A stretch of 64,000 bases of DNA from positions 32,001-96,000 of the IMG/VR virus record IMGVR_UViG_3300033388_006651. One strand, written 5' to 3'. This document shows positions 39,289 through 50,574 of the stretch, piece by piece. The notes below the pieces were generated by a model. The model saw only the letters and a list, made by a program, of their open reading frames with translations. It was not told the DNA's origin and ran no database searches. This DNA comes from a virus. A program made the position numbers and the translations under genes. Position 1 is the first letter of the stretch; each line of letters begins with the position of its first letter.

Positions 39289-39380
39289 GCATTTCCCGGC
39301 GTTGACCAAAACATCAAACGGCGCCGGGAACCCCCAAAGGGTTTGCTTCGCACGTTCAAAGGCCACGCTGGCTCCCATTC

Positions 39381-39456
39381 GCCGGTGTAGCTCAATTGGT
39401 AGAGCACTGGTTTTGTAAACCAGGGGTTGCGGGTTCGAGTCCCATTACCGGCTCCA
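39381..39456 (+). tRNA. tRNA-Thr(UGU)
   Basis: CTGGT-TTTGTAA-ACCAG; CCA. Confidence 0.9.
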
Positions 39457-39487
39457 AGTATTTCTCTTCACCCAAGGAACAGACAAC

Positions 39488-39562
39488 GCCTTTGTAGCTC
39501 AGTGGTAGAGCAGCTCATTCGTAACGAGCAGGTCGTGGGTTCGATTCCCACCTTGGGCTCCA
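39488..39562 (+). tRNA. tRNA-Thr(CGU)
   Basis: Loop TTCGTAA; CCA. Confidence 0.88.
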
Positions 39563-39564
39563 AG

Positions 39565-39606
39565 CACCAACACCAACACCAACACCAACACCAACACCAT
39601 CACCGA
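39565..39606 (+). repeat. (CACCAA)5 plus CACCAT and CACCGA
   Basis: Read directly. Confidence 0.9.
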
Positions 39607-39611
39607 CATAA

Positions 39612-39686
39612 GCCCTTGTAGCTCAGTGGAAGAGCGCTTCCTTGGTAAGGAAGAAGTCACGAGTTCGATTCTCGTCTTGGGCTCCA
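39612..39686 (+). tRNA. tRNA-Thr(GGU)
   Basis: CTTCC-TTGGTAA-GGAAG; CCA. Confidence 0.9.
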
Positions 39687-39837
39687 GGAACGCAGGACCC
39701 TCGTTCGAAGGTCACAAGCAAAAGGTAAAGACATCTGTTTTTCACACAGAAGACTGCGAGTTCGATTCTCGCCTTCCCCGCCATTTATGGGGAAGTGGTC
39801 ATAAGACGCACTCACCCCGCACACTCTCCTGCGTTCC
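39687..39837 (+). ncRNA. Module RNA A: circularly permuted tRNA-Glu(UUC), broken in the D loop, inside an 11-bp outer stem
   Basis: GGAACGCAGGA/TCCTGCGTTCC; TCACAAGCA; anticodon arm, T arm, CTTCCCC-G-CCA, TTTAT, GGGGAAG-TG-GTC; CACTC. Confidence 0.75.
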
Positions 39838-39998
39838 TTAATTTTCACCCTAATCCCAGCGCCTCGTAGAGCGAGGCACACGACAGCAGCTTCGCTTCGA
39901 GGCGAAAATGGCAGGCGACCGGACGGCCTGTGGGATCAAACAACCGATTTTTCTCAACCCCAACTTCAACCCCCAACGAACAGAAAGGACCGAGCACG

Positions 39999-40136
39999 AT
40001 GAACATCGAAAACGATGACTGCGATGATGTAGATGATACCTACGGAGCAGTGGCGCAGTTGGTAGCGCACTCGGTTGTCAGCCGAAAGGTCGCCGGTTCA
40101 AGTCCGGTCTGTTCCGCCAAGGGGGTGTTGGTCTAG
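39999..40136 (+). CDS. Asp-rich leader ORF reading into the tRNA-Asp genes
   Basis: AAAGGA SD; MNIENDDCDDVDDTY then the tRNA. Confidence 0.55.
   Translation: MNIENDDCDDVDDTYGAVAQLVAHSVVSRKVAGSSPVCSAKGVLV
40044..40119 (+). tRNA. tRNA-Asp(GUC)
   Basis: Loop TTGTCAG; GCCA end. Confidence 0.88.
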
Positions 40137-42245: not shown

Positions 42246-44114
42246 ATGGACAACAAAGAAACACTCGGACCCGCAGAGACCATCATCCAGTCACTGCTGG
42301 CCTACTCAGATCACATCTACCACGGCCGCCCCGGCGTCGTGGTGCCCGACGCGCGATCCACGACCGGAGTGCGATGGGACCCCGTCACCCACAAGGTCGG
42401 AGAGGACGGCGTCAAGACCGTTCTTCGCCTCACGCGAAACGGCAAGAAGACCATTCGTACCGAGATCGGCACGATGAACGGCGACAATCGTGTGAAGAAC
42501 GCGGGTGCCGATGTCGGCCTGTACCGCAAGAGCGGCCTCTTCCCAGAGGTTGCCCTGTGGTTCTACAAGCAGATCGCTGAGGTGTGGACGCTCGACAACG
42601 AATTCGCTGCTCGGTGGGCGTCGTACGCCTTCCGTCAGGAGCACCGTGACCTCAAGGTCATGCTCGCTGCGTTCATGCTCGTTCAGTCGCGTAAGGGCGA
42701 CCCCGTCATGGACGGGGGTGAGCGTCTGTTCGACGACGAGGACTACCGTGACGTGGGCGAGGCCATGGTCCTTCTCCTTGAGAAGGGCAACGACCTCAAC
42801 CCGAAGCTCCTGCTTCGGATCTACGATGTCCTGAACCTGCCCGAGATCGCAAAGATCAACCACGAGCTCGGCTTCGGCAAGTCCGCCAAGCGTCCGTTCC
42901 TCGGTCGTTGGCCCAAGGCGATCGACAAGTACCTTCGGTACCGCGAGGAGAACCCGAAGCTGCTCGAAGGGCTCGTCAACAAGGCTGCTTTCGGCAACAC
43001 CGTCAAGACTCTGGCTCGGCGTATCGGCTACAAGCCAACGTCCGACAAGTTCTTCGCTACCCTACGCTGGAAGCAGAAGCAGGCTGAAGACGGGCGTCGT
43101 GAGATGGCCATCGGTAAAGCCGTGAGGGCTGCTGAGTCGTGGGATCACCTCGACGAAGCCGGTGTTTGCGAGCTCATCGAGAAGAACAAGCCTGGCTGGA
43201 AGCGGATCGTGGGTCTCCTTCCTGCGAAGATCGGGGTCACCCGTGCGGTGATGGCTGCGACCATCGAGTCGGGCGGTCTCTCGGACAAGGATCTCATCAT
43301 CCTCACTCCAACGATCGAGGATCTTGGTCTGTTCAAGGTCCAGGAGATCAAGGCGCGTCATGCTGCGGCTCTCGCCAAGGCAAGCGACATGCGTGCGGCT
43401 AACATCGCCCGCAACGTTCGGTCCAAGGATCTCAAGGAGGAGATGGAGACCGGTGCCGACAAGGCAGCTCAGAAGGCTGCTGAGGAGGTCATCAAGAACC
43501 TGCGCCTCTACGTCGTCATCGACCGTTCGGCGTCGATGCAGGGAGCACTGGAGAAGGCGAAGCCACTGATCGCCAAGCTCATTCAGGCAATCCCAGCCGA
43601 GCGTCTGCACGTTTCGACGTTCAACACGATCGGTAAGGTGATCACCTTCAAGCACCACTCGACCGCTGGGGTCGAGGCAGCTTTCCGGGGCGTCAACGCC
43701 GGAGGGGGCACGGTGCACGCAGAAGGTGTTCGGGTTCTGGCTCAGTTCCCGCCTGCGGCAGACGAGGACTCCCTGATGATCTTCATCGGGGACGAGGGCG
43801 AGCGTCGGCACTTTGCCGAAGCTGTGGAGGCATCTGGTCTCCGTCCCCTGGCCTTCGGGCTCCTCGCCACGGTGGGTCCTCGTTGGGGTCGCGGTCAGGC
43901 GATTCGGGACACGGCTGCTCGACTGGACATCCCGTGCTTCGAGATCGATGACCGCACCTTTGATGGCGACCCGTACGCCATCCCGCGTACGATCAGGAAC
44001 CTGATCGCGGCTACCCCTGTGGGGGTGAACACCGGTCGTCGCGTCGTCCCGCGCGTGACGCTGGTGGGTCAGATCCTGGAGACCGAGATTCTCCAGAAGC
44101 CCAACTGGGCATAG
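42246..44114 (+). CDS. Helical-domain plus vWA protein, Ro60/TROVE-like
   Basis: C-terminal MIDAS DRSASM..GGT..IFIGDE after a long helical region; Ro60 assignment is inferred. Confidence 0.6.
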   Translation: MDNKETLGPAETIIQSLLAYSDHIYHGRPGVVVPDARSTTGVRWDPVTHKVGEDGVKTVLRLTRNGKKTIRTEIGTMNGDNRVKNAGADVGLYRKSGLFPEVALWFYKQIAEVWTLDNEFAARWASYAFRQEHRDLKVMLAAFMLVQSRKGDPVMDGGERLFDDEDYRDVGEAMVLLLEKGNDLNPKLLLRIYDVLNLPEIAKINHELGFGKSAKRPFLGRWPKAIDKYLRYREENPKLLEGLVNKAAFGNTVKTLARRIGYKPTSDKFFATLRWKQKQAEDGRREMAIGKAVRAAESWDHLDEAGVCELIEKNKPGWKRIVGLLPAKIGVTRAVMAATIESGGLSDKDLIILTPTIEDLGLFKVQEIKARHAAALAKASDMRAANIARNVRSKDLKEEMETGADKAAQKAAEEVIKNLRLYVVIDRSASMQGALEKAKPLIAKLIQAIPAERLHVSTFNTIGKVITFKHHSTAGVEAAFRGVNAGGGTVHAEGVRVLAQFPPAADEDSLMIFIGDEGERRHFAEAVEASGLRPLAFGLLATVGPRWGRGQAIRDTAARLDIPCFEIDDRTFDGDPYAIPRTIRNLIAATPVGVNTGRRVVPRVTLVGQILETEILQKPNWA

Positions 44115-44125
44115 GAGTAAACCTC

Positions 44126-45058
44126 ATGGGATGGAGAGACCTAATCACAACCAAGGAGGAGACCACCACTCTTCCGTGGACCGGAGGACGGTCTCTCCAC
44201 TCCGGGTCCCGAACCTTCAAGCTCGGGGCCCGGCCTCGGGACTTTGGCTGGTACACCTTCGACCTCGAAGGCAACAAGGCCAAGGACCCGAAGCCCGCTG
44301 ACCCAGTTCCTGAGATTCTCAAGAGCTCCGTCAAGGGCTATCTGGTCGGGGACCGTCTGGTCCCCGATGACACCCGGATCGATCCCGACCCGGCCAAGAT
44401 CATCAACTACTCGGAGAAGGTCTACCTCCTTCCCGAAGAACTCGACCGGTTCTCGCGTGTGCGAGCCGGCCGCATTTACCCCGAGGGGCCTCTCATTTTT
44501 CTTGAGCAGGAATTCCCCCTCGGCCCCGAGGACGAAGTCATGGAAGCATTCTTCGACAACAAGATCAGCACCTTCGGTATCCGAAGCGTCGCGCCCGCAC
44601 TCGATGCGGCTTTCCGTATGGAGGTCTACCAGCGTCAGCAGGCAGAGTTCCGTCGGCAAGAACTGATCCGGCTTCGTGCCGAGGAGGAGGCACGTCTTGC
44701 CAAGGAGGAGCGCCGCAAGGAGATGATCGAGAAGCTCGGGGATGGCGCTGGCCGTCGTGCGATGGCCCAGGAAAACTTCGGTGAAGCCGCTCGGGCTGCC
44801 CTCATGGTCGGTGGTGCTCAGTACCTCGACCACCGAAAGGGAGGGCGTAAAGGTGAATGGGTCGTCAAGTATCGCGTCGATGGGCAACGCCTTGAGTGCG
44901 TGTGCGACACCAACCTCCAGATCATCGACGCAGGCGTTTGCCTTGTCGATCACGGAACCAACGAAAAGGGCGACACCTACTTCACCCTCGAATCACTGCC
45001 TGCGGTCATCCGTCAGGCCATCCGCGAGCACAAGCTCGTCGTATGGAGACACATCTAA
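44126..45058 (+). CDS. Hypothetical protein, possible E2-like C-terminal domain
   Basis: AGGAG SD; IIDAGVCL resembles the E2 G.iCL site; operon context. Confidence 0.5.
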   Translation: MGWRDLITTKEETTTLPWTGGRSLHSGSRTFKLGARPRDFGWYTFDLEGNKAKDPKPADPVPEILKSSVKGYLVGDRLVPDDTRIDPDPAKIINYSEKVYLLPEELDRFSRVRAGRIYPEGPLIFLEQEFPLGPEDEVMEAFFDNKISTFGIRSVAPALDAAFRMEVYQRQQAEFRRQELIRLRAEEEARLAKEERRKEMIEKLGDGAGRRAMAQENFGEAARAALMVGGAQYLDHRKGGRKGEWVVKYRVDGQRLECVCDTNLQIIDAGVCLVDHGTNEKGDTYFTLESLPAVIRQAIREHKLVVWRHI

Positions 45059-45633
45059 TGGAATTCAAAGACATCAACATCAAGGCCGTCGGCACCGAGG
45101 TTCTCCTCGTGGGCGGCGTCTGGGCTGGCCAGGGTCAGACCTTCGTGTGCCTGTATCCGCAAGAGGAGCAGGAAGGGGACGTTCACGTCCTCGACATGAC
45201 CCGCGAGGATTGGGCCGCACTGCTTCGGCAGTCGGACCTGATGGAGACGGAAGTTCTGGCGAAGGCCGAGGACGGAAAACTCTACAAGGCCATCGCTCGC
45301 AAGAGCCAACGCAACATCGACCAGGGCACTTCCTGGAACGTGTTCCGACGGGACGGGTACGCCTGCCGCTACTGCGGCAACGACAAGATCCCCCTTACCG
45401 TGGACCACCTCGTGCTCTGGGAAGAGGGCGGTCCTTCTCTCGAGGAGAACCTCCTGTCCGCTTGTCGCAAGTGCAACAAGGTGCGTGGCAACACGCAGTA
45501 CGCGGACTGGCTCAAGCACCCCTTCTACCTGGGGAAGTCCAAGAACCTGACGCCCGAGGTCCGAGCCGCCAATGAGGCGATCCTCGGGACTCTCGACGCC
45601 ATCCCACGGCACACCAAGAAGAGGAAGCGATAG
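45058..45633 (+). CDS. HNH nuclease-domain protein
   Basis: RDGYACRYCG..TVDHL..NLLSACRKCNKVRG. Confidence 0.8.
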   Translation: MEFKDINIKAVGTEVLLVGGVWAGQGQTFVCLYPQEEQEGDVHVLDMTREDWAALLRQSDLMETEVLAKAEDGKLYKAIARKSQRNIDQGTSWNVFRRDGYACRYCGNDKIPLTVDHLVLWEEGGPSLEENLLSACRKCNKVRGNTQYADWLKHPFYLGKSKNLTPEVRAANEAILGTLDAIPRHTKKRKR

Positions 45634-45635
45634 TC

Positions 45636-46007
45636 ATGATCGAAACAGGTCTAGTCGTAACTGACGCTGGTCCCGTCTACTGGCACCTGCCGCGAGGCAG
45701 GACCGGTGGCAGCCTTCCCGACAGCCGCTCGCTGTGGGACGTGCTGTGGGAACTCCGTAGGGAACCGTTCCTGGGAGTCGCCCACAGCCATCCGGGCTCG
45801 GGAATTCCCGGGCCGTCCATGACGGACATCACTACCTTCTCCGGGGTCGAGCTCGGGCTTGGCCGTCGGCTCACCTGGTGGATCACCAGCTCATCACACA
45901 TGATCGGCCTGAACTACGCAGGACCGACCAAGTACAACTACAACTCTTTCCCCGTGAAGGAGCCCTACTGGGCTGCGCAACTGCGGGAGTTCTCGAAAGG
46001 ACAATGA
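45636..46007 (+). CDS. JAB/MPN (JAMM) metalloisopeptidase
   Basis: E near the N-terminus; AHSHP..PSMTD. Confidence 0.8.
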   Translation: MIETGLVVTDAGPVYWHLPRGRTGGSLPDSRSLWDVLWELRREPFLGVAHSHPGSGIPGPSMTDITTFSGVELGLGRRLTWWITSSSHMIGLNYAGPTKYNYNSFPVKEPYWAAQLREFSKGQ

Positions 46008-46267
46008 ACATGGAAAACAACGAAGCACGCGTCAACATCACCTACGGGGGGAACAACGGGGATCTCCCTGACCCCGTCCTGTTCGACTCCACTGATGGCG
46101 ACATCAAGGGGTGGATCACGGAAGCTGTCGCAGGGGGTTCCGTCCCCGGTATCCCGGCGGACGGCAACGTGGATTTCACGGATTTCGTCGTGGATCGCTT
46201 CTCGGCTAACGCTGAGCGCGACTACAATTTAATTCAGATAAGACCTAAAACTCCATTCGGGTGTTGA
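46004..46267 (+). CDS. Small ubiquitin-like (beta-grasp) protein candidate
   Basis: About 87 aa, ends RPKTPFGC; lies between JAB and E1. Confidence 0.55.
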   Translation: MNMENNEARVNITYGGNNGDLPDPVLFDSTDGDIKGWITEAVAGGSVPGIPADGNVDFTDFVVDRFSANAERDYNLIQIRPKTPFGC

Positions 46268-46280
46268 CCGAAGACACCGT

Positions 46281-47243
46281 TTGGTCTACGATCAAACGGT
46301 GCCAGAAGATCTCGACCTGGATGCTCTCGTGAGCCGGTACGAGGAGGGGGCGAGTGCCGCTTCTCTCGGCCGGGATTTCGGGGTCAGCACCTGGACGGTT
46401 CTGAACCGTCTCAGGGGTGCTGGGATCCGTATTCGTTCCAACAAGGAGCAGAACGAGAAACGGCTCGATCTGGATGAGGTGCAACAGCGGCGTCTCGTTG
46501 AGATCGTAGACGGGCTCCTCCTTGGAGATGGGTCCATTGATCCCAAAGGGAGTTTGCGCATCGAACAGACTCAGGACCATTTGGGTTGGTTCGATTCGAT
46601 CCAACAAGCCCTTGGGAGTGTCGGGGCGGTTTCGCGACGCACCCCTGTCGCACCTCGCGTCCGTTTCATTAAGGATCATGAGGCGCACGGCAAAGGAGGC
46701 GCCGTCTTTTACACGCCCTGCTACGTTGAGCTCCAAGAGCAGCGGCAGCGGTGGTATCCGAAAGGAAAGAAGCGCGTCCCCGAGGATGTGCTCCTCACGC
46801 CTCTAAGCATTGCCTACTGGTTCTGTGGGGATGGTTCCTATGACAAGCCGGGATCGCTCGTGTTCTACACCAACTCTTTTTTCAAGAAGGAGACAGAGCG
46901 TTTGGCTCGGGGCCTTACCAAGCTCGGTGTTCGGGCCCGGTGTCGTCCTGTGGGACAACACCGATACCGCGAATGGAAAATCCACATCCTTCGGCGTGAC
47001 GATGCCCTGCGGCTTCGTGAACTGATGGGGGATCATGTGCCGGAGTGTTTCCAGTACAAGTTCGTATACGTCCGAGCGGCCATTCCACCAGGTTCTACGA
47101 CCGCTAAGCTGACTTTCACGCAGGCCCAGGAAATCCGGGAGCGTACAAAGAACGGGGAAACCCAGACGGCGCTGGCCAAGGAATTCGGGGTCTCCCAAAC
47201 CGCGATCCGCCAGATCGTTCGCGGGAAAGTCCACAAGCCATGA
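46281..47243 (+). CDS. LAGLIDADG homing endonuclease with HTH domains
   Basis: GLLLGDG, YWFCGDG. Confidence 0.85.
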   Translation: MVYDQTVPEDLDLDALVSRYEEGASAASLGRDFGVSTWTVLNRLRGAGIRIRSNKEQNEKRLDLDEVQQRRLVEIVDGLLLGDGSIDPKGSLRIEQTQDHLGWFDSIQQALGSVGAVSRRTPVAPRVRFIKDHEAHGKGGAVFYTPCYVELQEQRQRWYPKGKKRVPEDVLLTPLSIAYWFCGDGSYDKPGSLVFYTNSFFKKETERLARGLTKLGVRARCRPVGQHRYREWKIHILRRDDALRLRELMGDHVPECFQYKFVYVRAAIPPGSTTAKLTFTQAQEIRERTKNGETQTALAKEFGVSQTAIRQIVRGKVHKP

Positions 47244-47464
47244 AACCCAAACACGAGAAAACTCTTGAGGTAGCAAAGCGCTGCCTGGAGTACCCGGAGA
47301 CAGAGCTGAGCCGTTTGGAGATCAAGAACCTCTTACTCTGTTACAGAGATGCAATAGAGAGCCGCTACGAGACTTGGGAGATCGCTGAGGCTTGGGACAC
47401 GGATAGTCCGATGGGCACGTTGAGGCGGTTGGGACAGAACCGAGAAAAGGAAATGGGAACGTGA
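47240..47464 (+). CDS. Small hypothetical protein
   Basis: ATGA overlap. Confidence 0.45.
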   Translation: MKPKHEKTLEVAKRCLEYPETELSRLEIKNLLLCYRDAIESRYETWEIAEAWDTDSPMGTLRRLGQNREKEMGT

Positions 47465-47710
47465 AAATTACGATCATGAAAATTACGATCATCGATTGCA
47501 GGGACACTCGTGTGTCTAAGGAGCAGAACTCGTGATCGGGAAATACATTCTGGCCGGCAATACCTCCCACCTGTGGGGGTGCGAAATACATGTCTGCTCT
47601 CTTTGTGGGCAACATCAAGACTCGGCCGAAGAAACATGTCCTGAAGGGCGCCGCATGATGGGTTTTCGAATTTCGACTGGGGATGCCAAAAGCATCAAGG
47701 AGATACCAAC

Positions 47711-48280
47711 ATGAAAATTACGATCATCGGAGTCGGAGCACTGGGCTCACACCTCGTGCAAGCTCTTCGGAACGAGAAGGTGACCCTCAAGGTCATCGAC
47801 TTCGACCGCGTCGAGATGAAGAACGTCGCTTCTCAGTTTCACTTCAAGAACGGAGTGGGCAAAAAGAAGGTCGATGCTCTCAAGCAGGCGATGCAATTCT
47901 GCTACGGCCGGAAGATCGAGATCGTGGGCAACAAGCTCACGGCGGACAACGTTGACCAGCTCCTGGGCGACGCTGACCTGCTCGTGGACTGCCTGGACAA
48001 CGGAGAAGCCCGGACGCTCGTCCAGGGCTTCGCTCGAGCCAATGGGGTGCCGTGCGTGCACGGAGCTCTTGCGGCCGATGGTGGCTTCGGTAGGGCCGTA
48101 TGGACTTCCGGTTTTGTTATTGACAGCGAGACATTGGGTGCGGCAACATGTGAAGACGGTGCCTTCCTCCCGTTCATCCAGCTCGTTGCCACACGCCTCG
48201 CGTACGTCGTCCAGCGATTCCTCCAAACTGGGGAGAAGCACAACTTCAACATCTTCCCCGGCGGCGTCACTAAATTCTAG
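47711..48280 (+). CDS. ThiF/E1-family adenylyltransferase
   Basis: IIGVGALGS, DFDRVEMKN..Q, KVDAL, VDCLDN..R. Confidence 0.88.
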   Translation: MKITIIGVGALGSHLVQALRNEKVTLKVIDFDRVEMKNVASQFHFKNGVGKKKVDALKQAMQFCYGRKIEIVGNKLTADNVDQLLGDADLLVDCLDNGEARTLVQGFARANGVPCVHGALAADGGFGRAVWTSGFVIDSETLGAATCEDGAFLPFIQLVATRLAYVVQRFLQTGEKHNFNIFPGGVTKF

Positions 48281-48284
48281 GGCC

Positions 48285-49265
48285 GTGTGTCGAGGGACCC
48301 GGCGCACTGCTCACCTCGACATTGACGCGCTCGTGCGGGGTTACGAAACCGGCGACAGTGCCCAGACGCTGGCGAAGAAATTCAACACTGGACGTTCCAC
48401 CGTACTCACCCGGTTACGGGAAGCCGGGGTGCGAATTCGGCGTCCTTCTGAATGGGAAGAGAAACATCTGGTTCTCCTCCCCCAACACGAGGAACCTTTC
48501 ATCGAGCTCCTTGATGGCCTCATGCTCGGAGACGGCACTCTCCCTCGTGACGGGGGGCTTCGCATTGAACAGAGCCATGTGCGTCACGGGTGGTTGAAAG
48601 ACATCCAACAGGAGCTGCGGGGTTTTGGGGTGAAGAGTACGATGGACGAAGTTATACGGCCCGAAAGGGCCCGCAAAGACGGACGAATCCTTTCGGCCTA
48701 TAGGGGGTTTCTTTTGCGCACTCCTGCTTACGTTGAACTTCGCTCACAACGACAGCGATGGTATCCAGGTGATGTAAAACGCATTCCTGACGATGTGCGT
48801 ATCACCAAAAAATCTGTTGCGGCCTGGGTAAGTGGGGACGGCACAGGAGGTAAGAAGGGCACGCTGGTTCTTTGCACCGATGATTTCACCGAAGAAGGAG
48901 TCGGTCTGCTGATTGACCGACTCAAAGAGGTTTTTAATGTTAAGGCTCGACGCGTTTCAGGTGAACGACCTCGAGTCGGCCTTTACCGGAAAAATGATGT
49001 GCTCCGACTTCGTGAGGTCCTTCTCCCACACATGTCGAAATGCTGTCGGTACAAGTTCCAACACGCCCGTGGCGCCCAAAGGAAAGGGAAACTCCCCGAG
49101 GCGTCCGTGCAGGCTATTCGTGGAAAGTACGACGAGGGGGTCACGTTGAGCGTGATCGCAAAGGAGCATGGGCTGAGTCGGTCAGCCGTCAACAACATTG
49201 GTCTGCGGAAAGTGTACAAGTGGGTGGCTGAGACGGCCGTTCCAGCCACCGTCGAAGAAAGTTGA
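48285..49265 (+). CDS. LAGLIDADG homing endonuclease (paralog of 46281)
   Basis: GLMLGDG, WVSGDG, shared RQRWYP..KR.P. Confidence 0.82.
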   Translation: MCRGTRRTAHLDIDALVRGYETGDSAQTLAKKFNTGRSTVLTRLREAGVRIRRPSEWEEKHLVLLPQHEEPFIELLDGLMLGDGTLPRDGGLRIEQSHVRHGWLKDIQQELRGFGVKSTMDEVIRPERARKDGRILSAYRGFLLRTPAYVELRSQRQRWYPGDVKRIPDDVRITKKSVAAWVSGDGTGGKKGTLVLCTDDFTEEGVGLLIDRLKEVFNVKARRVSGERPRVGLYRKNDVLRLREVLLPHMSKCCRYKFQHARGAQRKGKLPEASVQAIRGKYDEGVTLSVIAKEHGLSRSAVNNIGLRKVYKWVAETAVPATVEES

Positions 49266-49275
49266 AAAAAAGTGG

Positions 49276-49304
49276 TTGACTTCCCTCAGCCCCCGATCCA
49301 ATCT
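49276..49304 (+). promoter_or_regulatory. Sigma70-like promoter for the module-RNA array
   Basis: TTGACT-17-CAATCT. Confidence 0.5.
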
Positions 49305-49312
49305 GTTCGTCC

Positions 49313-49380
49313 AGGCTGTTTCCCACGCGCAGGTCTCACAAGCACAACCCCGGTCCGAAGTGACCGGGACACTGAAGCCT
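49313..49380 (+). ncRNA. Module RNA B: minimal module without a tRNA domain
   Basis: AGGCT/AGCCT, GGTC-TCACAAGCA..GACC..CACTG. Confidence 0.5.
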
Positions 49381-49414
49381 CCCAGACCGCGCCCTCGAAA
49401 CTACCTACAACTAA

Positions 49415-49550
49415 GCCGGATATGACCCGTGGTGGGTCACCAACCTTCCAAGTTGGCTAACAATCCGACACCTGCACTCACCCCTTCACAGGGGTACTCG
49501 GCAAAATGTCTACAAGCATCTGCCTGGTTCGACTCCAGGATCCGGCTCTA
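49415..49550 (+). ncRNA. tRNA-Gly(UCC)-like RNA with the module (about 65 nt) in the variable loop
   Basis: GCCGGAT/ATCCGGC; CCAAC-CTTCCAA-GTTGG; GACA..CACTC-ACCCC/GGGGT..TGTC-TACAAGCA; CCTGG-TTCGACT-CCAGG. Confidence 0.75.
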
Positions 49551-49680
49551 AAGAAGCAACCACTGCCCGTAAGGCTCACAAGCAAAGTAGCTCAGTGTAG
49601 AGCGTCTGTCCTGAAAACAGAAGGTCGCGGTTTCATCACCGTCCTTGCAACAAACCAGCTTTTCCACTCGGTCGCTTCTT
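49551..49680 (+). ncRNA. Module RNA C: degenerate tRNA enclosed in the module
   Basis: AAGAAGC/GCTTCTT; TCACAAGCA; D arm, TCTGT/ACAGA arm; CACTC. Confidence 0.7.
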
Positions 49681-49716
49681 AACTTTTTCACTCAGCAGCA
49701 GTACACAACATAACAT

Positions 49717-49848
49717 GGAGGACATGACCCCGATGGGGGGTCGCCCGACGGTAAATCGGTAAAACCGACACCACCACTCGCTTCTTCACGGAAGCACTCG
49801 GCGAATGTCTACAAGCAACTCTTGGTTCGAATCCAGGGTCCTCCACCA
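49717..49848 (+). ncRNA. tRNA-Tyr(GUA)-like RNA with the module in the variable loop
   Basis: GGAGGAC/GTCCTCC-A-CCA; loop CGGTAAA; GACA..CACTC-GCTTC/GAAGC..TGTC-TACAAGCA. Confidence 0.75.
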
Positions 49849-49978
49849 GAAGCAACCACCACGCCTAGACTCACAAGCGAAAGTAGCTCACTCGGTAGAG
49901 CGCGTCCCTGATAAGGATGAGGAGCTGGTTCGATCCCGGCCCTTTGCAACAAAACAGTCTTTCGACTCGGTCGCTTCT
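49848..49978 (+). ncRNA. Module RNA D: tRNA-Ile(GAU)-like domain (49877-49948) enclosed in the module
   Basis: AGAAGC/GCTTCT; AGAC/GTCT; TCACAAGCG; CGTCC-CTGATAA-GGATG; no CCA. Confidence 0.72.
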
Positions 49979-49986
49979 AACTTTTC

Positions 49987-50134
49987 GATCAACGCACCAG
50001 ATCAATCTCACAAGCAAATTGTTGGTTCGATTCCAACCTTCCCCACCTATGGGGAAGTGGGCAAATGGTAAAGCCACCGGTATATTAAACCGGCGTTTCA
50101 AAACGCAACTCCAGGTTTTTCACTCGCGTTGATC
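49987..50134 (+). ncRNA. Module RNA E: circularly permuted tRNA (T arm, closed acceptor, D arm, anticodon arm), YrlA-like order
   Basis: GATCAACGC/GCGTTGATC; GTTGG-TTCGATT-CCAAC, CTTCCCC-ACCTAT-GGGGAAG, GGC..GCC, CCGGT/ACCGG; CACTC. Confidence 0.75.
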
Positions 50135-50145
50135 AACTAACCCCG

Positions 50146-50190
50146 TCCCCGGGCGCTGCTCCTCAAAGAGCCGCCCGGGGATTTCTTTTT
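50146..50190 (+). terminator. Intrinsic terminator closing the RNA array
   Basis: TCCCCGGGCG/CGCCCGGGGA then TTTCTTTTT. Confidence 0.75.
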
Positions 50191-50199
50191 AAGAACGAC

Positions 50200-50574
50200 T
50201 CATTCGTCCCGGAAGACGAGGCCCTTCGCGTAGACGTGGGCGGTCCCGAATTTCACGAACATGCGCACCAGGTCGGCTCGGACCACAGGGCGCTCGCCGT
50301 GGGCCGTGACGAAGCTGTCGTGCTCTCCAACCTCGTAGATCACGCGCACCCAGTCGCCATCGATCTCGAGATCTTGGAACAGGACCTCACCACGGATGCC
50401 CGCATGGACATTCCGACGACCTTTCTCGAGCATCCGCGCCCGCTCCTTCTGATCTATCTCAAACTCGGCATCCTGGAGGGTGAGACTCATTTTGTGGCGG
50501 CTCACCCGTCCCGTCAGGCGGCACCGCACGGTGAACCGTTTGTCATGCAGGTTCCAATAGACAAACTCTTTCAC
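50200..50574 (-). CDS. Hypothetical phage protein (paralog of 34937)
   Basis: YWNLH..NVHAGIRG. Confidence 0.65.
   Translation of the reverse strand: MKEFVYWNLHDKRFTVRCRLTGRVSRHKMSLTLQDAEFEIDQKERARMLEKGRRNVHAGIRGEVLFQDLEIDGDWVRVIYEVGEHDSFVTAHGERPVVRADLVRMFVKFGTAHVYAKGLVFRDE

What the first reader, a model, noticed from the sequence alone, without database searches (positions are those of the whole stretch)
49276..50190. Array of tRNA-chimeric RNAs sharing one conserved bipartite module (candidate new Y-RNA-like family)
Seen: between a TTGACT promoter and an intrinsic terminator lie six RNAs, with a seventh at 39687-39837. All share a P1 helix, an internal loop whose 3' strand ends CACUC (CACUG in B, GACUC in D), a 3-4 bp P2 that covaries (GACA/TGTC, AGAC/GTCT, AATC/GGTT, AGGC/GCTT, GGTC/GACC), then U(C)ACAAGC. 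The module joins tRNA at three places: the variable loop (Gly, Tyr, E), the acceptor ends (C, D) and the D loop (A). In Gly and Tyr its two strands come in reverse order and are closed by a UUCAC(A/G) loop. Known: bacterial YrlA Y RNAs join a Ro60-binding stem to a permuted tRNA mimic. Inference: the module is a protein-docking handle, possibly for the Ro60-like protein upstream, displaying varied tRNA bodies as decoys or adaptors. Alternatively it is a new small intron or processing element.
Basis: partly seen in the sequence, partly recalled or inferred. Interest (0 to 1): 0.93.

Follow-up and report, generated by a model that had tools for sequence, protein, structure and literature searches.

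The report
tRNA-scaffolded RNA module in huge phages
A huge-phage genome carries an operon of small RNAs in which one conserved, base-paired RNA "handle" is grafted onto tRNA-like bodies at different positions; it matches no described RNA family and sits beside a protein shaped like the RNA-binding Ro60 protein, so it may be a new Y-RNA-like system.

Summary
Between a conserved TTGACT promoter-like site and a hairpin plus U-tract lie six RNAs, with a seventh at 39686-39838. All share one module:
- P1
- a 4x4 internal loop (5' AYCN, 3' ACUC)
- a short P1b
- P2
- Y-ACA(A/C)GC

It replaces the variable arm (Gly, Tyr, E), brackets the acceptor ends (C, D), sits in the D loop (seventh) or stands on a plain hairpin (A).

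Homologous arrays in the same order occur in related megaphage contigs and about 50 metagenome loci. Structure-blind alignments show strong covariation: 94% of cells paired, and 151 double changes against 36 in shuffles. Rfam finds only tRNA, and the YrlA model stays under threshold.

The bodies keep the tRNA elbow, but the anticodon triplet is the most variable part. One third of the V units lack U33. Some permuted units close the acceptor stem with tetraloops. They look like mimics more than decoders.

The vWA protein upstream has no TROVE sequence match, but its model aligns full-length only to Ro60/TROVE structures, and the two are syntenic in every relative fetched.

Best reading, about 45%: a Y-RNA-like handle for this Ro-like protein. 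Binding, RNA ends and cleavage are untested.

The parts
49276..49304 (+). Promoter-like site: TTGACT (49276-49281), 17-nt spacer, CAATCT (49299-49304)
   Evidence: Read directly from the sequence. The same TTGACA-N17-CAGAMT arrangement precedes the array in 13 related loci. The generic sigma-70 scan does not score it.
49318..49401 (+). Unit A: the module alone on a plain hairpin. P1 GUUUC/GAAAC; P1b CGCGC/GCGC; P2 GGUC/GACC; UC-ACAAGC at 49336-49343; NCUC at 49393-49396.
   Evidence: The minimum-free-energy fold reproduces it. P1, P1b and P2 covary in relatives, and in two relatives even the hairpin is missing.
49415..49548 (+). Unit V-Gly: tRNA-like body with anticodon loop CUUCCAA. The module (49467-49517) replaces the variable arm and is closed by a P1 hairpin.
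   Evidence: R1 covariance model hit at 64.6 bits. It is part of alignment A3.
49551..49680 (+). Unit C: tRNA body (49581-49650, anticodon loop CCUGAAA with C33) bracketed by the module. Leader and trailer form P1 (AAGAAGCAACC/GGUCGCUUCUU) and P2 (AGGCU/AGCUU). ACAA abuts tRNA nucleotide +1.
   Evidence: Rfam tRNA hit at 42.4 bits. Unit detected. Covariation in alignment A4.
49717..49847 (+). Unit V-Tyr: tRNA-like body with anticodon loop CGGUAAA (G33), 3' A-CCA, and the module at 49767-49816 as the variable arm.
   Evidence: R1 hit at 69.9 bits. GGCGAAUG at 49800-49807 fits the YrlA motif GNCGAAN0-1G (PMC4201824).
49848..49978 (+). Unit D: tRNA body (49877-49948, anticodon GAU) bracketed by the module. 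P1 is AGAAGCAACC/GGUCGCUUCU, P2 is AGACU/AGUCU, and the 3' loop reads GACUC.
   Evidence: ARAGORN and Rfam tRNA hits..
49985..50136 (+). Unit E: circularly permuted tRNA-like RNA. Order: module 5' strand, T arm, acceptor stem closed by ACCUAU, D arm, anticodon arm, module 3' strand.
   Evidence: The fold reproduces P1, the 4x4 loop, P1b and P2. Partial Rfam tRNA hit. Covariation in alignment A5.
50147..50190 (+). Intrinsic terminator: a 9-bp GC stem extended by an inner GCUC/GAGC helix, then a U-tract
   Evidence: dG -29.3, z -6.9. Equivalent hairpins plus U-tracts end the arrays in L125 and L264.
39686..39838 (+). Unit F, the seventh copy: permuted tRNA-like RNA opened in the D loop. P1 is an 11-12 bp helix, followed by GGUC-ACAAGC. 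The acceptor stem is closed by G-CCA-UUUAU.
   Evidence: An ortholog sits at L126 9039-9185, just upstream of the vWA gene.
42246..44114 (+). 622-aa protein with a helical N-domain and a C-terminal vWA domain: a Ro60-like architecture and the candidate partner of the module
   Evidence: Pfam finds only VWA_2. Model pLDDT is 81. Foldseek tops are TROVE/Ro60 over the full length. 1yvp scores Z 11.0 over 400 residues. Syntenic with the arrays.
44126..48280 (+). Conserved operon between the vWA gene and the array: a 310-aa unknown protein, a JAB-like protein (45636-46007), a 129-aa ORF, and a small ThiF/E1-like protein (47711-48280). In this window it is interrupted by HNH and LAGLIDADG genes.
   Evidence: tblastn shows the same gene order directly upstream of the arrays in most related loci.

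Best explanation
These are stable non-coding RNAs of a clade of huge phages. A tRNA or tRNA-like body serves as the scaffold. A portable rod-shaped module of about 45-60 nt is the common functional part: P1, a 4x4 loop AYCN/ACUC, P1b, P2, and Y-ACA(A/C)GC.

The module most likely docks a protein. The best candidate is the Ro60-like helical plus vWA protein encoded in the same gene neighbourhood. The complex would then resemble bacterial Ro60 with its YrlA Y RNAs: the handle binds the ring protein, and the tRNA-like end presents a tRNA elbow and a highly variable anticodon loop to tRNA-directed enzymes. Plausible roles are a decoy or a tether in tRNA damage, repair or surveillance during infection.

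Shown here: the module, its structure, its conservation, its grafting at four kinds of position, the tRNA mimicry, the synteny, and the Ro60-like fold.

Inferred: protein binding, which protein binds, and the biological role.
For: 1. The module is real and under selection. Covariation was counted on MAFFT alignments made without structure information in three unit types, and RNAalifold agrees. The single-stranded motifs ACUC and ACA(A/C)GC are invariant, as expected for contact surfaces.
2. The module is independent of the body. It occurs as the variable arm, around the acceptor ends, in the D loop, and alone on a hairpin or an 18-nt loop.
3. The bodies behave as mimics.
- The T loop and the D-loop GG are invariant, while the anticodon triplet is the most variable part (entropy 1.8-2.0 bits, with position 37 conserved).
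- U33 is present in only 32 of 48 V units.
- Some loops have 8 nt.
- The E-type acceptor stem is closed by GAAA, UUCG or GCAA tetraloops in several phages (read from alignment A5).
- The order T arm, closed acceptor-like stem, D arm is that of YrlA (PMC4201824).
4. The partner candidate is Ro60-like at fold level. Ro60/TROVE are the top full-length Foldseek hits in the PDB and in the viral library. 1yvp is the only top-50 chain aligning over 400 residues.
5. Synteny. The order vWA, p310, JAB, ORF, E1, then promoter and array is kept in all protein-anchored loci and in most array-anchored loci. Unit F lies just upstream of the vWA gene.
6. No canonical YrlA is present in these phage genomes.
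7. A subset of modules carries the YrlA 5'-strand motif GNCGAAN0-1G, as GGCGAAUG or GUCGAAUG.
8. From the literature: some jumbo phages carry TROVE proteins, which in cellular organisms act with a tRNA-like RNA partner (PMC7824862).
Against: - There is no sequence-level TROVE signal. Structural scores are modest (TM 0.26-0.35, rmsd 12-15 A). A second model of the N-domain alone failed (pLDDT 50).
- The YrlA covariance model does not reach threshold. The GNCGAA motif is absent from C and E types and from many V units.
- Synteny comes from one phage clade, so it does not separate function from shared ancestry.
- V units also sit inside large canonical tRNA arrays, away from the vWA gene.
- An anticodon triplet at near-maximal entropy beside a conserved position 37 also fits real tRNAs of different specificity.
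- C and D units look like ordinary pre-tRNAs whose leader and trailer pair.
Confidence: 0.45

Rival explanations
1. The units are working tRNAs, possibly resistant to host nucleases, and the module is a cis-acting structural or processing element. It would be a leader-trailer processing stem for C and D, an oversized variable arm for Gly and Tyr, and a clamp that holds the two pieces of permuted tRNAs together. After RNase P and 3' trimming open the acceptor linker, E and F would become two-piece tRNAs.
For: - ACAA abuts tRNA position +1 in all C-type units.
- Several E and F acceptor linkers read N73-CCA followed by 3-8 nt and then G+1, as expected of a permuted precursor.
- The anticodon triplet is maximally diverse while position 37 and the stems are kept, as among real isoacceptor families.
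- V units sit inside canonical tRNA arrays.
- Engineered tRNAs with hairpin aptamers in the variable arm remain active in translation (PMC7590224 abstract).
- M. smegmatis YrlA can be cut by RNase P and receive CCA (PMC4201824).
Against: - One third of V and C units lack U33, and some loops have 8 nt.
- Several E-type acceptor stems are sealed by stable tetraloops without CCA.
- Unit A has no tRNA body at all.
- Invariant single-stranded motifs are not needed for a mere clamp.
- Orthologous units change anticodon between close relatives, whereas neighbouring canonical tRNAs keep theirs.
Confidence: 0.25
2. The module is a catalytic or enzyme-cleaved element: a new small self-cleaving ribozyme, or the recognition site of a sequence-specific endonuclease or splicing system. 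It would cut at or near ACAA|GC and/or ACUC to release or rearrange the RNAs, in an intron-like or permuted-tRNA maturation pathway.
For: - About 18 invariant nucleotides are concentrated in two internal loops separated by a short helix of fixed length. This layout is reminiscent of two-loop ribozymes (a resemblance recalled from my own knowledge, not tested).
- ACAA|G coincides with the tRNA 5' end in C-type units.
- The units are packed end to end in one transcript and must be separated.
- Permuted genes elsewhere mature by cleavage and ligation (established knowledge).
Against: - No known ribozyme family matches, even at E<=10.
- The loops do not form a bulge-helix-bulge motif.
- Removing the module from the V units would still leave about 20 extra conserved nucleotides in the variable region.
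- RtcB is encoded in only 1 of 5 related genomes, three of which are at least 90% complete, and in none of the 146-kb own record.
- Cutting inside the variable or D loop of a tRNA mimic has no obvious benefit.
Confidence: 0.12
3. The RNAs are decoys or sponges for host RNA-targeting defence proteins, such as anticodon nucleases, toxin RNases or tRNA-modifying toxins, and act without the Ro-like protein. The module would be a mimic or a trap site, and the variable anticodon loops would be bait.
For: - The anticodon loops are hypervariable on conserved bodies.
- Several differently baited units occur per phage.
- The module is restricted to phage DNA. Only one hit occurs in 185,579 prokaryote species genomes, on a MAG scaffold.
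- From my own knowledge, not tested here: phage tRNAs are known to evolve anticodon-loop changes under pressure from host nucleases.
Against: No host factor is identified. The invariant module argues for one constant partner rather than many. Nothing here separates this reading from the Ro-linked version.
Confidence: 0.12

Closest known systems
Bacterial and phage YrlA Y RNAs with Ro60 (Rsr) (Rfam RF02553; Chen et al. 2014, PMC4201824)
   Same: - Modular ncRNA: a stem formed by the RNA ends, joined to a tRNA-like domain with a T arm, a closed acceptor-like stem-loop and a D arm.
- Encoded beside a ring-protein gene with a helical plus vWA architecture.
- Several RNAs per locus.
- Some units carry the motif GNCGAAN0-1G.
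- Some acceptor linkers could be opened by RNase P.
   Different: - The YrlA covariance model does not reach threshold (at most 37 bits against 69).
- The handle has its own invariant motifs, ACUC and ACA(A/C)GC.
- The handle leaves the body at the variable region, the D loop or the acceptor ends, not in place of the anticodon stem.
- An anticodon arm is present and hypervariable.
- The handle also occurs in unpermuted tRNAs and without any tRNA body.
- The protein has no detectable TROVE sequence signature.
- The operon carries JAB, a small ORF and an E1-like gene instead of RtcB and RtcA.
Circularly permuted and split tRNA genes of algae and archaea, matured through bulge-helix-bulge cleavage and ligation
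   Same: Units E and F have the 3' half before the 5' half, with the acceptor ends joined by a short linker that often contains CCA. A helix formed by the transcript ends lies at the break point.
   Different: - There is no bulge-helix-bulge geometry.
- The break-point helix has conserved sequence motifs and also occurs in unpermuted units.
- Some acceptor stems are sealed by tetraloops.
- No consistent ligase is encoded.
- The context is a bacteriophage.
Class II tRNAs and allo-tRNAs with long variable arms and diverse anticodons (PMC5389517); engineered aptamer-tagged tRNAs (PMC7590224)
   Same: V units are cloverleaf RNAs whose variable arm is a long hairpin. One body type carries many different anticodons. 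Some have an 8-bp acceptor stem and a long D stem.
   Different: - The arm is about 50 nt, tethered by single strands of 7-12 nt.
- It carries invariant loops.
- The same arm occurs outside the variable position.
- U33 is often missing.
Self-cleaving ribozymes next to phage tRNAs (HDV-like theta, hammerhead and others)
   Same: Small conserved structured RNA elements physically joined to tRNAs in phage tRNA clusters. The conserved nucleotides lie in internal loops.
   Different: No Rfam ribozyme model matches. The element is inserted inside tRNA bodies as well as beside them. Cleavage is untested.

Membership tests
YrlA Y RNA (RF02553) | Match to the family covariance model at or above the gathering score (69 bits) | tested here: not met
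   No YrlA hit at E<=10 in 49200-50260. In five related phage genomes the best hit is 37 bits. Hits fall mostly on tRNA genes, a few inside the arrays, and 13 of 14 control genomes give similar sub-threshold hits.
YrlA Y RNA (RF02553) | GNCGAAN0-1G motif in the 5' strand of the Ro-binding stem (PMC4201824) | tested here: inconclusive
   The motif is present in V-Tyr (GGCGAAUG, 49800-49807) and in many metagenomic V units (GUCGAAUG). In others it is replaced by GUUGAAUG or GUUGCGUG. It is absent from C and E units.
YrlA Y RNA (RF02553) | tRNA-like domain with conserved T and D arms around a closed acceptor-like stem-loop | tested here: met
   Units E and F have this layout. In 20 E-type units the T loop GGUUCGA..CC and the D-loop GG are invariant, and the acceptor stem is closed by a linker or a tetraloop.
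YrlA Y RNA (RF02553) | Encoded next to a Ro60 (TROVE domain) ortholog | tested here: inconclusive
   There is no TROVE hit by Pfam or by a PDB profile search. The model of the adjacent 622-aa protein aligns full-length to Ro60/TROVE structures, with low TM-scores.
Canonical decoding tRNA | 7-nt anticodon loop with U33 and a purine at position 37; an open acceptor end | tested here: not met
   - U33 is present in 32 of 48 V units, and 8 of 56 loops are not 7 nt.
- Window units C (C33) and V-Tyr (G33) deviate.
- E and F acceptor stems are closed.
- Units D and V-Gly taken alone do meet this feature.
Permuted or intron-bearing tRNA matured by splicing endonuclease and ligase | Bulge-helix-bulge motif (3-nt bulge, 4-bp helix, 3-nt bulge) at the junction | tested here: not met
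   The junction is P1, a 4x4 loop, P1b, P2, and then a larger asymmetric loop with invariant sequence.
Permuted or intron-bearing tRNA matured by splicing endonuclease and ligase | A ligase (RtcB) available in the same genome | tested here: inconclusive
   RtcB is absent from the 146-kb own record. It is present in only 1 of 5 related genomes. A host enzyme could serve. Splicing endonuclease was not searched.
Known self-cleaving ribozymes in Rfam (hammerhead, hairpin, twister, twister-sister, pistol, hatchet, HDV-like) | Match to a family covariance model | tested here: not met
   Only tRNA, tRNA-Sec (18 bits, wrong strand) and a snoRNA chance hit appear at E<=10. At the gathering threshold, six related loci show only tRNA and one SRP RNA.

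The most novel reading that the evidence does not exclude
The module is a new kind of portable RNA tag that huge phages graft onto tRNA scaffolds. On this reading it is neither a Y RNA nor a processing stem. It would be either a new ribozyme or ligand element, or the address label of a new ribonucleoprotein. That particle would use a panel of tRNA look-alikes with fast-evolving anticodon loops as programmable bait against host tRNA-directed defences. The adjacent E1, JAB and small-ORF genes might take part.
Probability: 0.3. Interest if true: 0.9.

Novelty: new variant of a known kind. Interest (0 to 1): 0.78.

Why it matters
It defines a well-supported RNA family that matches nothing in Rfam. 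More than 100 copies were found in soil, sediment and other metagenomes, and nearly all are in huge-phage DNA.

Its design stands out. I found no description of one structured handle placed at four different positions of a tRNA scaffold, arranged in operons of four to seven RNAs.

If the Ro-like protein is the partner, Ro/Y-RNA biology would extend to a protein family that sequence searches do not recognise. That family has more than 1,400 metagenomic members. It would also give a tractable system for asking what tRNA mimicry by Y RNAs is for.

The hypervariable anticodon loops on conserved bodies point to a conflict with host tRNA-targeting defences. The module itself could serve as a natural tRNA-compatible RNA tag.

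Tried and rejected
- Rfam at the gathering threshold and at E<=10 found nothing except tRNA. YrlA RF02553 on five genomes gave only sub-threshold hits, mostly on tRNA genes.
- The phage GenBank collection gave no relative by DNA. By protein it gave only Virus Rctr197k.
- Two loose DNA patterns in the viral contigs gave mostly chance matches and were replaced by tighter patterns.
- The resemblance of unit A's hairpin (GGUCCGAAG) to the metazoan Y RNA motif GGUCCGA was rejected as chance. The hairpin sequence is not conserved and is even absent in relatives.
- The resemblance of unit C's 5' loop to a type I-F CRISPR repeat was rejected, because it is not kept in homologs.
- The idea that the V units are tRNA-Ser-like was considered and set aside. 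The anticodons are mostly not Ser, and the arm is tethered by long single strands.
- Folding the N-domain of the vWA protein alone gave an unusable model (pLDDT 50).
- Second-look and wide structural alignments were dominated by the vWA domain.
- The ESM Atlas gave nothing for the 310-aa protein, and its structure library was unavailable. PHROGs gave nothing for the vWA, 310-aa or JAB proteins.
- TROVE and RtcB family searches of the own record were negative.
- The generic promoter and terminator scan missed both signals.
Units were then located by motif-based and complementarity-based detection instead.
Full report
**What the window is.** The window lies in a 146.8-kb IMG/VR virus record judged 28% complete. 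Its relatives are contigs of 200-620 kb. This is a huge phage with a large tRNA island: 20 ARAGORN and 22 Rfam tRNA hits in the window.

**The observation.** Reading 49100-50400 and 39300-40130, and detecting units by motif and complementarity, confirms six units between a TTGACT-N17-CAATCT site and a strong hairpin plus U-tract, with a seventh upstream.

The units are:
- A, 49318-49401
- V-Gly, 49415-49548
- C, 49551-49680
- V-Tyr, 49717-49847
- D, 49848-49978
- E, 49985-50136
- F, 39686-39838

Minimum-free-energy folds reproduce the module in A, V-Gly and E without constraints.

**Anatomy after comparison.** The module is a rod with these parts, in order:
- P1, 5-14 bp, nearly always ending CC/GG.
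- An internal loop of about 4x4 nt. Its 3' strand is ACUC (rarely CCUC or UCUC). Its 5' strand is A-Y-C-N.
- A short helix, P1b, of 2-4 bp, often followed by a 1-2-nt bulge or mismatch.
- P2, 4 bp plus a conserved U-A closing pair in the open forms.
- A pyrimidine and the invariant ACA(A/C)GC.

On the other strand, P2 is preceded by YCC(A), often after an (A)AGC. In C-type units the final GC of ACAAGC forms tRNA pairs 1-72 and 2-71.

Otherwise the description holds.

**Homologs.**
- The protein-anchored search with the upstream vWA protein gave six loci. Four of them (L125, L126, its near-identical twin L127, and L130) showed arrays on inspection. L125 and L126 have them in the order A, V, C, E about 4-5 kb downstream. 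The two most distant loci (L128, L129) have diverged versions, found with the covariance model and by eye.
- Motif scans added two further viral contigs (L264, 619 kb; L267, 200 kb).
- They also added 50 metagenome loci.
- In 185,579 prokaryote species genomes there is one hit, on a Gemmatimonadota MAG scaffold.

The module is therefore essentially confined to phage DNA, and widespread there.

**Statistics.** All counts come from MAFFT alignments made without structure information.

| Alignment | Units | Cells paired | In shuffles | Double-sided changes | In shuffles |
|---|---|---|---|---|---|
| A3 | 56 distinct V modules | 94.2% | 76.6% | 151 | 35.5 |
| A4 | 19 C-type | 94.7% | 85.8% | 29 | 8.1 |
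| A5 | 20 E-type | 86.2% | 69.9% | 62 | 21.3 |

- For the V modules, none of 500 shuffles reached the observed percentage paired, double-sided changes or covariation score. Sliding the 3' partners by 1-3 columns gave 28-47% paired.
- RNAalifold predicted the same helices independently.
- Many G-U pairs fix the strand as +.
- Unit A's helices covary across 10 relatives. Two relatives lack the inner hairpin altogether, so ACAAGC sits in an 18-nt loop.
- The module is therefore the common denominator, and the body is exchangeable.

**What the bodies are.**
- The T loop and the D-loop GG are invariant in C and E types.
- The three anticodon positions have the highest entropy of the whole RNA (1.8-2.0 bits), while position 37 and the stems are kept.
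- Among V units only 32 of 48 seven-nucleotide loops have U33, and 8 of 56 loops are not 7 nt. Anticodons range over at least 18 triplets.
- Close relatives with identical anticodon stems carry different triplets. Neighbouring canonical tRNAs keep their identities across the same phages.
- In some phages the E-type acceptor stem is joined by N73-CCA plus 3-8 nt. In others it is sealed by a GAAA, UUCG or GCAA tetraloop.
- Together this fits tRNA mimics better than decoders. V-Gly and D alone would pass as tRNAs.

**Context.**
- In most loci the array follows the order vWA, 310-aa protein, (HNH), JAB-like, 129-aa ORF, small E1-like, and then its own promoter-like site.
- In the window, an HNH gene and two LAGLIDADG genes are inserted within or after this operon.
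- Unit F lies between tRNA genes just upstream of the vWA gene, here and in L126.
- V units also occur inside long canonical tRNA arrays, between tRNA-Phe and tRNA-Lys(CUU). At least one 22-kb contig has both contexts (L299 and L313).

**The protein.**
- Sequence methods see only a vWA domain.
- The AlphaFold model (38-sequence alignment, pLDDT 81, pTM 0.50) has a small beta domain, about 300 residues of helical repeats, and a vWA domain.
- Foldseek ranks TROVE and Ro60 entries first, with 530-570 aligned columns. These include frog, human and Deinococcus Ro60 and a Thermus-phage Ro60. E-values run from 3e-7 to 3e-5, but TM is only 0.22-0.37.
- The viral library gives phage Ro-like and TROVE proteins.
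- In a Foldseek-independent search of 48,161 chains, Ro60 1yvp is the only top-50 entry that reaches beyond the vWA domain (Z 11.0, 400 residues, rmsd 13 A).
- I take this as a Ro60-like architecture. Homology is plausible but not proven.

**Known families.**
- Rfam has no match.
- YrlA is the nearest concept. According to Chen et al. 2014, YrlA has a Ro-binding stem with the motif GNCGAAN0-1G and a tRNA-like domain made of a V arm, a T arm, a closed acceptor-like stem and a D arm. M. smegmatis YrlA can be cut by RNase P and receive CCA.
- Units E and F share that design, and a subset of V modules carries the motif.
- The YrlA model fails, however, and the handle differs in sequence, position and distribution.
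- TROVE proteins, whose cellular homologs work with a tRNA-like RNA partner, are already noted in some jumbo phages (PMC7824862).

**Mechanism.** My best reading (0.45) is a Y-RNA-like RNP. The module docks the Ro-like protein, and the tRNA-like end engages tRNA-directed factors.

The rivals are:
- Functional tRNAs with a cis-acting clamp or processing stem (0.25).
- A ribozyme or an endonuclease/splicing site (0.12).
- A Ro-independent decoy (0.12).

RtcB is encoded in only one of five related genomes. This weakens an obligatory phage-encoded ligation pathway.

No computation available here can show binding, RNA ends or cleavage.

**Verdict.** This is a real, strongly supported RNA family that matches nothing in Rfam, with an unusual modular design. 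The link to a Ro-like protein is plausible and testable but unproven.

Noticed in passing
L126:15904-15996 (contig IMGVR_UViG_3300017971_000185): A bacterial-type small SRP (4.5S) RNA (Rfam RF00169, 57.7 bits against a cut-off of 40) follows the last E unit of the related phage's array directly. A phage-encoded SRP RNA in the same stable-RNA operon is unusual. None is present in this window.
   Followed up: no
window 45055-45575, 46281-47243, 47874-49265: An HNH gene and two LAGLIDADG homing-endonuclease genes with HTH domains are inserted in the vWA-to-E1 operon and between the E1 gene and the RNA array. In most relatives the E1 gene abuts the array promoter.
   Followed up: partly
L125, L126, L264 (E and V units): Several units share an 8-nt anticodon loop, C-R-U-G-U-A-A-A: a Tyr-like GUA loop with one extra base. 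The window's V-Tyr instead has CGGUAAA with G33.
   Followed up: partly
L278, L283, L287, L296, L300, L313 and others: Related soil phages carry syntenic arrays of 20-28 canonical tRNAs, with one or two V-type module RNAs always between tRNA-Phe and tRNA-Lys(CUU). No tRNA-Ser was seen in these arrays, and tRNA-Leu genes form separate clusters.
   Followed up: partly
L318 (JBDHAB010000014.1, Gemmatimonadota MAG scaffold, 72 kb): This is the only prokaryote-genome hit for the V module pattern. It has the full promoter and A-V arrangement. It may be a binned phage contig, a prophage or a host clue.
   Followed up: no
window 39565-39600: A tandem CACCAA-type repeat (about six copies) fills the spacer between two tRNA-Thr genes.
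   Followed up: no
G005 (record of L264): 211949-213151 and 582733-583923: Two full-length RtcB ligase genes occur in the 619-kb relative, far from the array. There are none in four other related records.
   Followed up: partly
window 42246-48280 and related loci: A conserved gene set (Ro-like vWA protein, 310-aa protein of no known family, JAB-like, small ORF, minimal ThiF/E1-like) has no recognisable E2. No Pfam, PHROG or Atlas lead was found for the 310-aa protein.
   Followed up: partly
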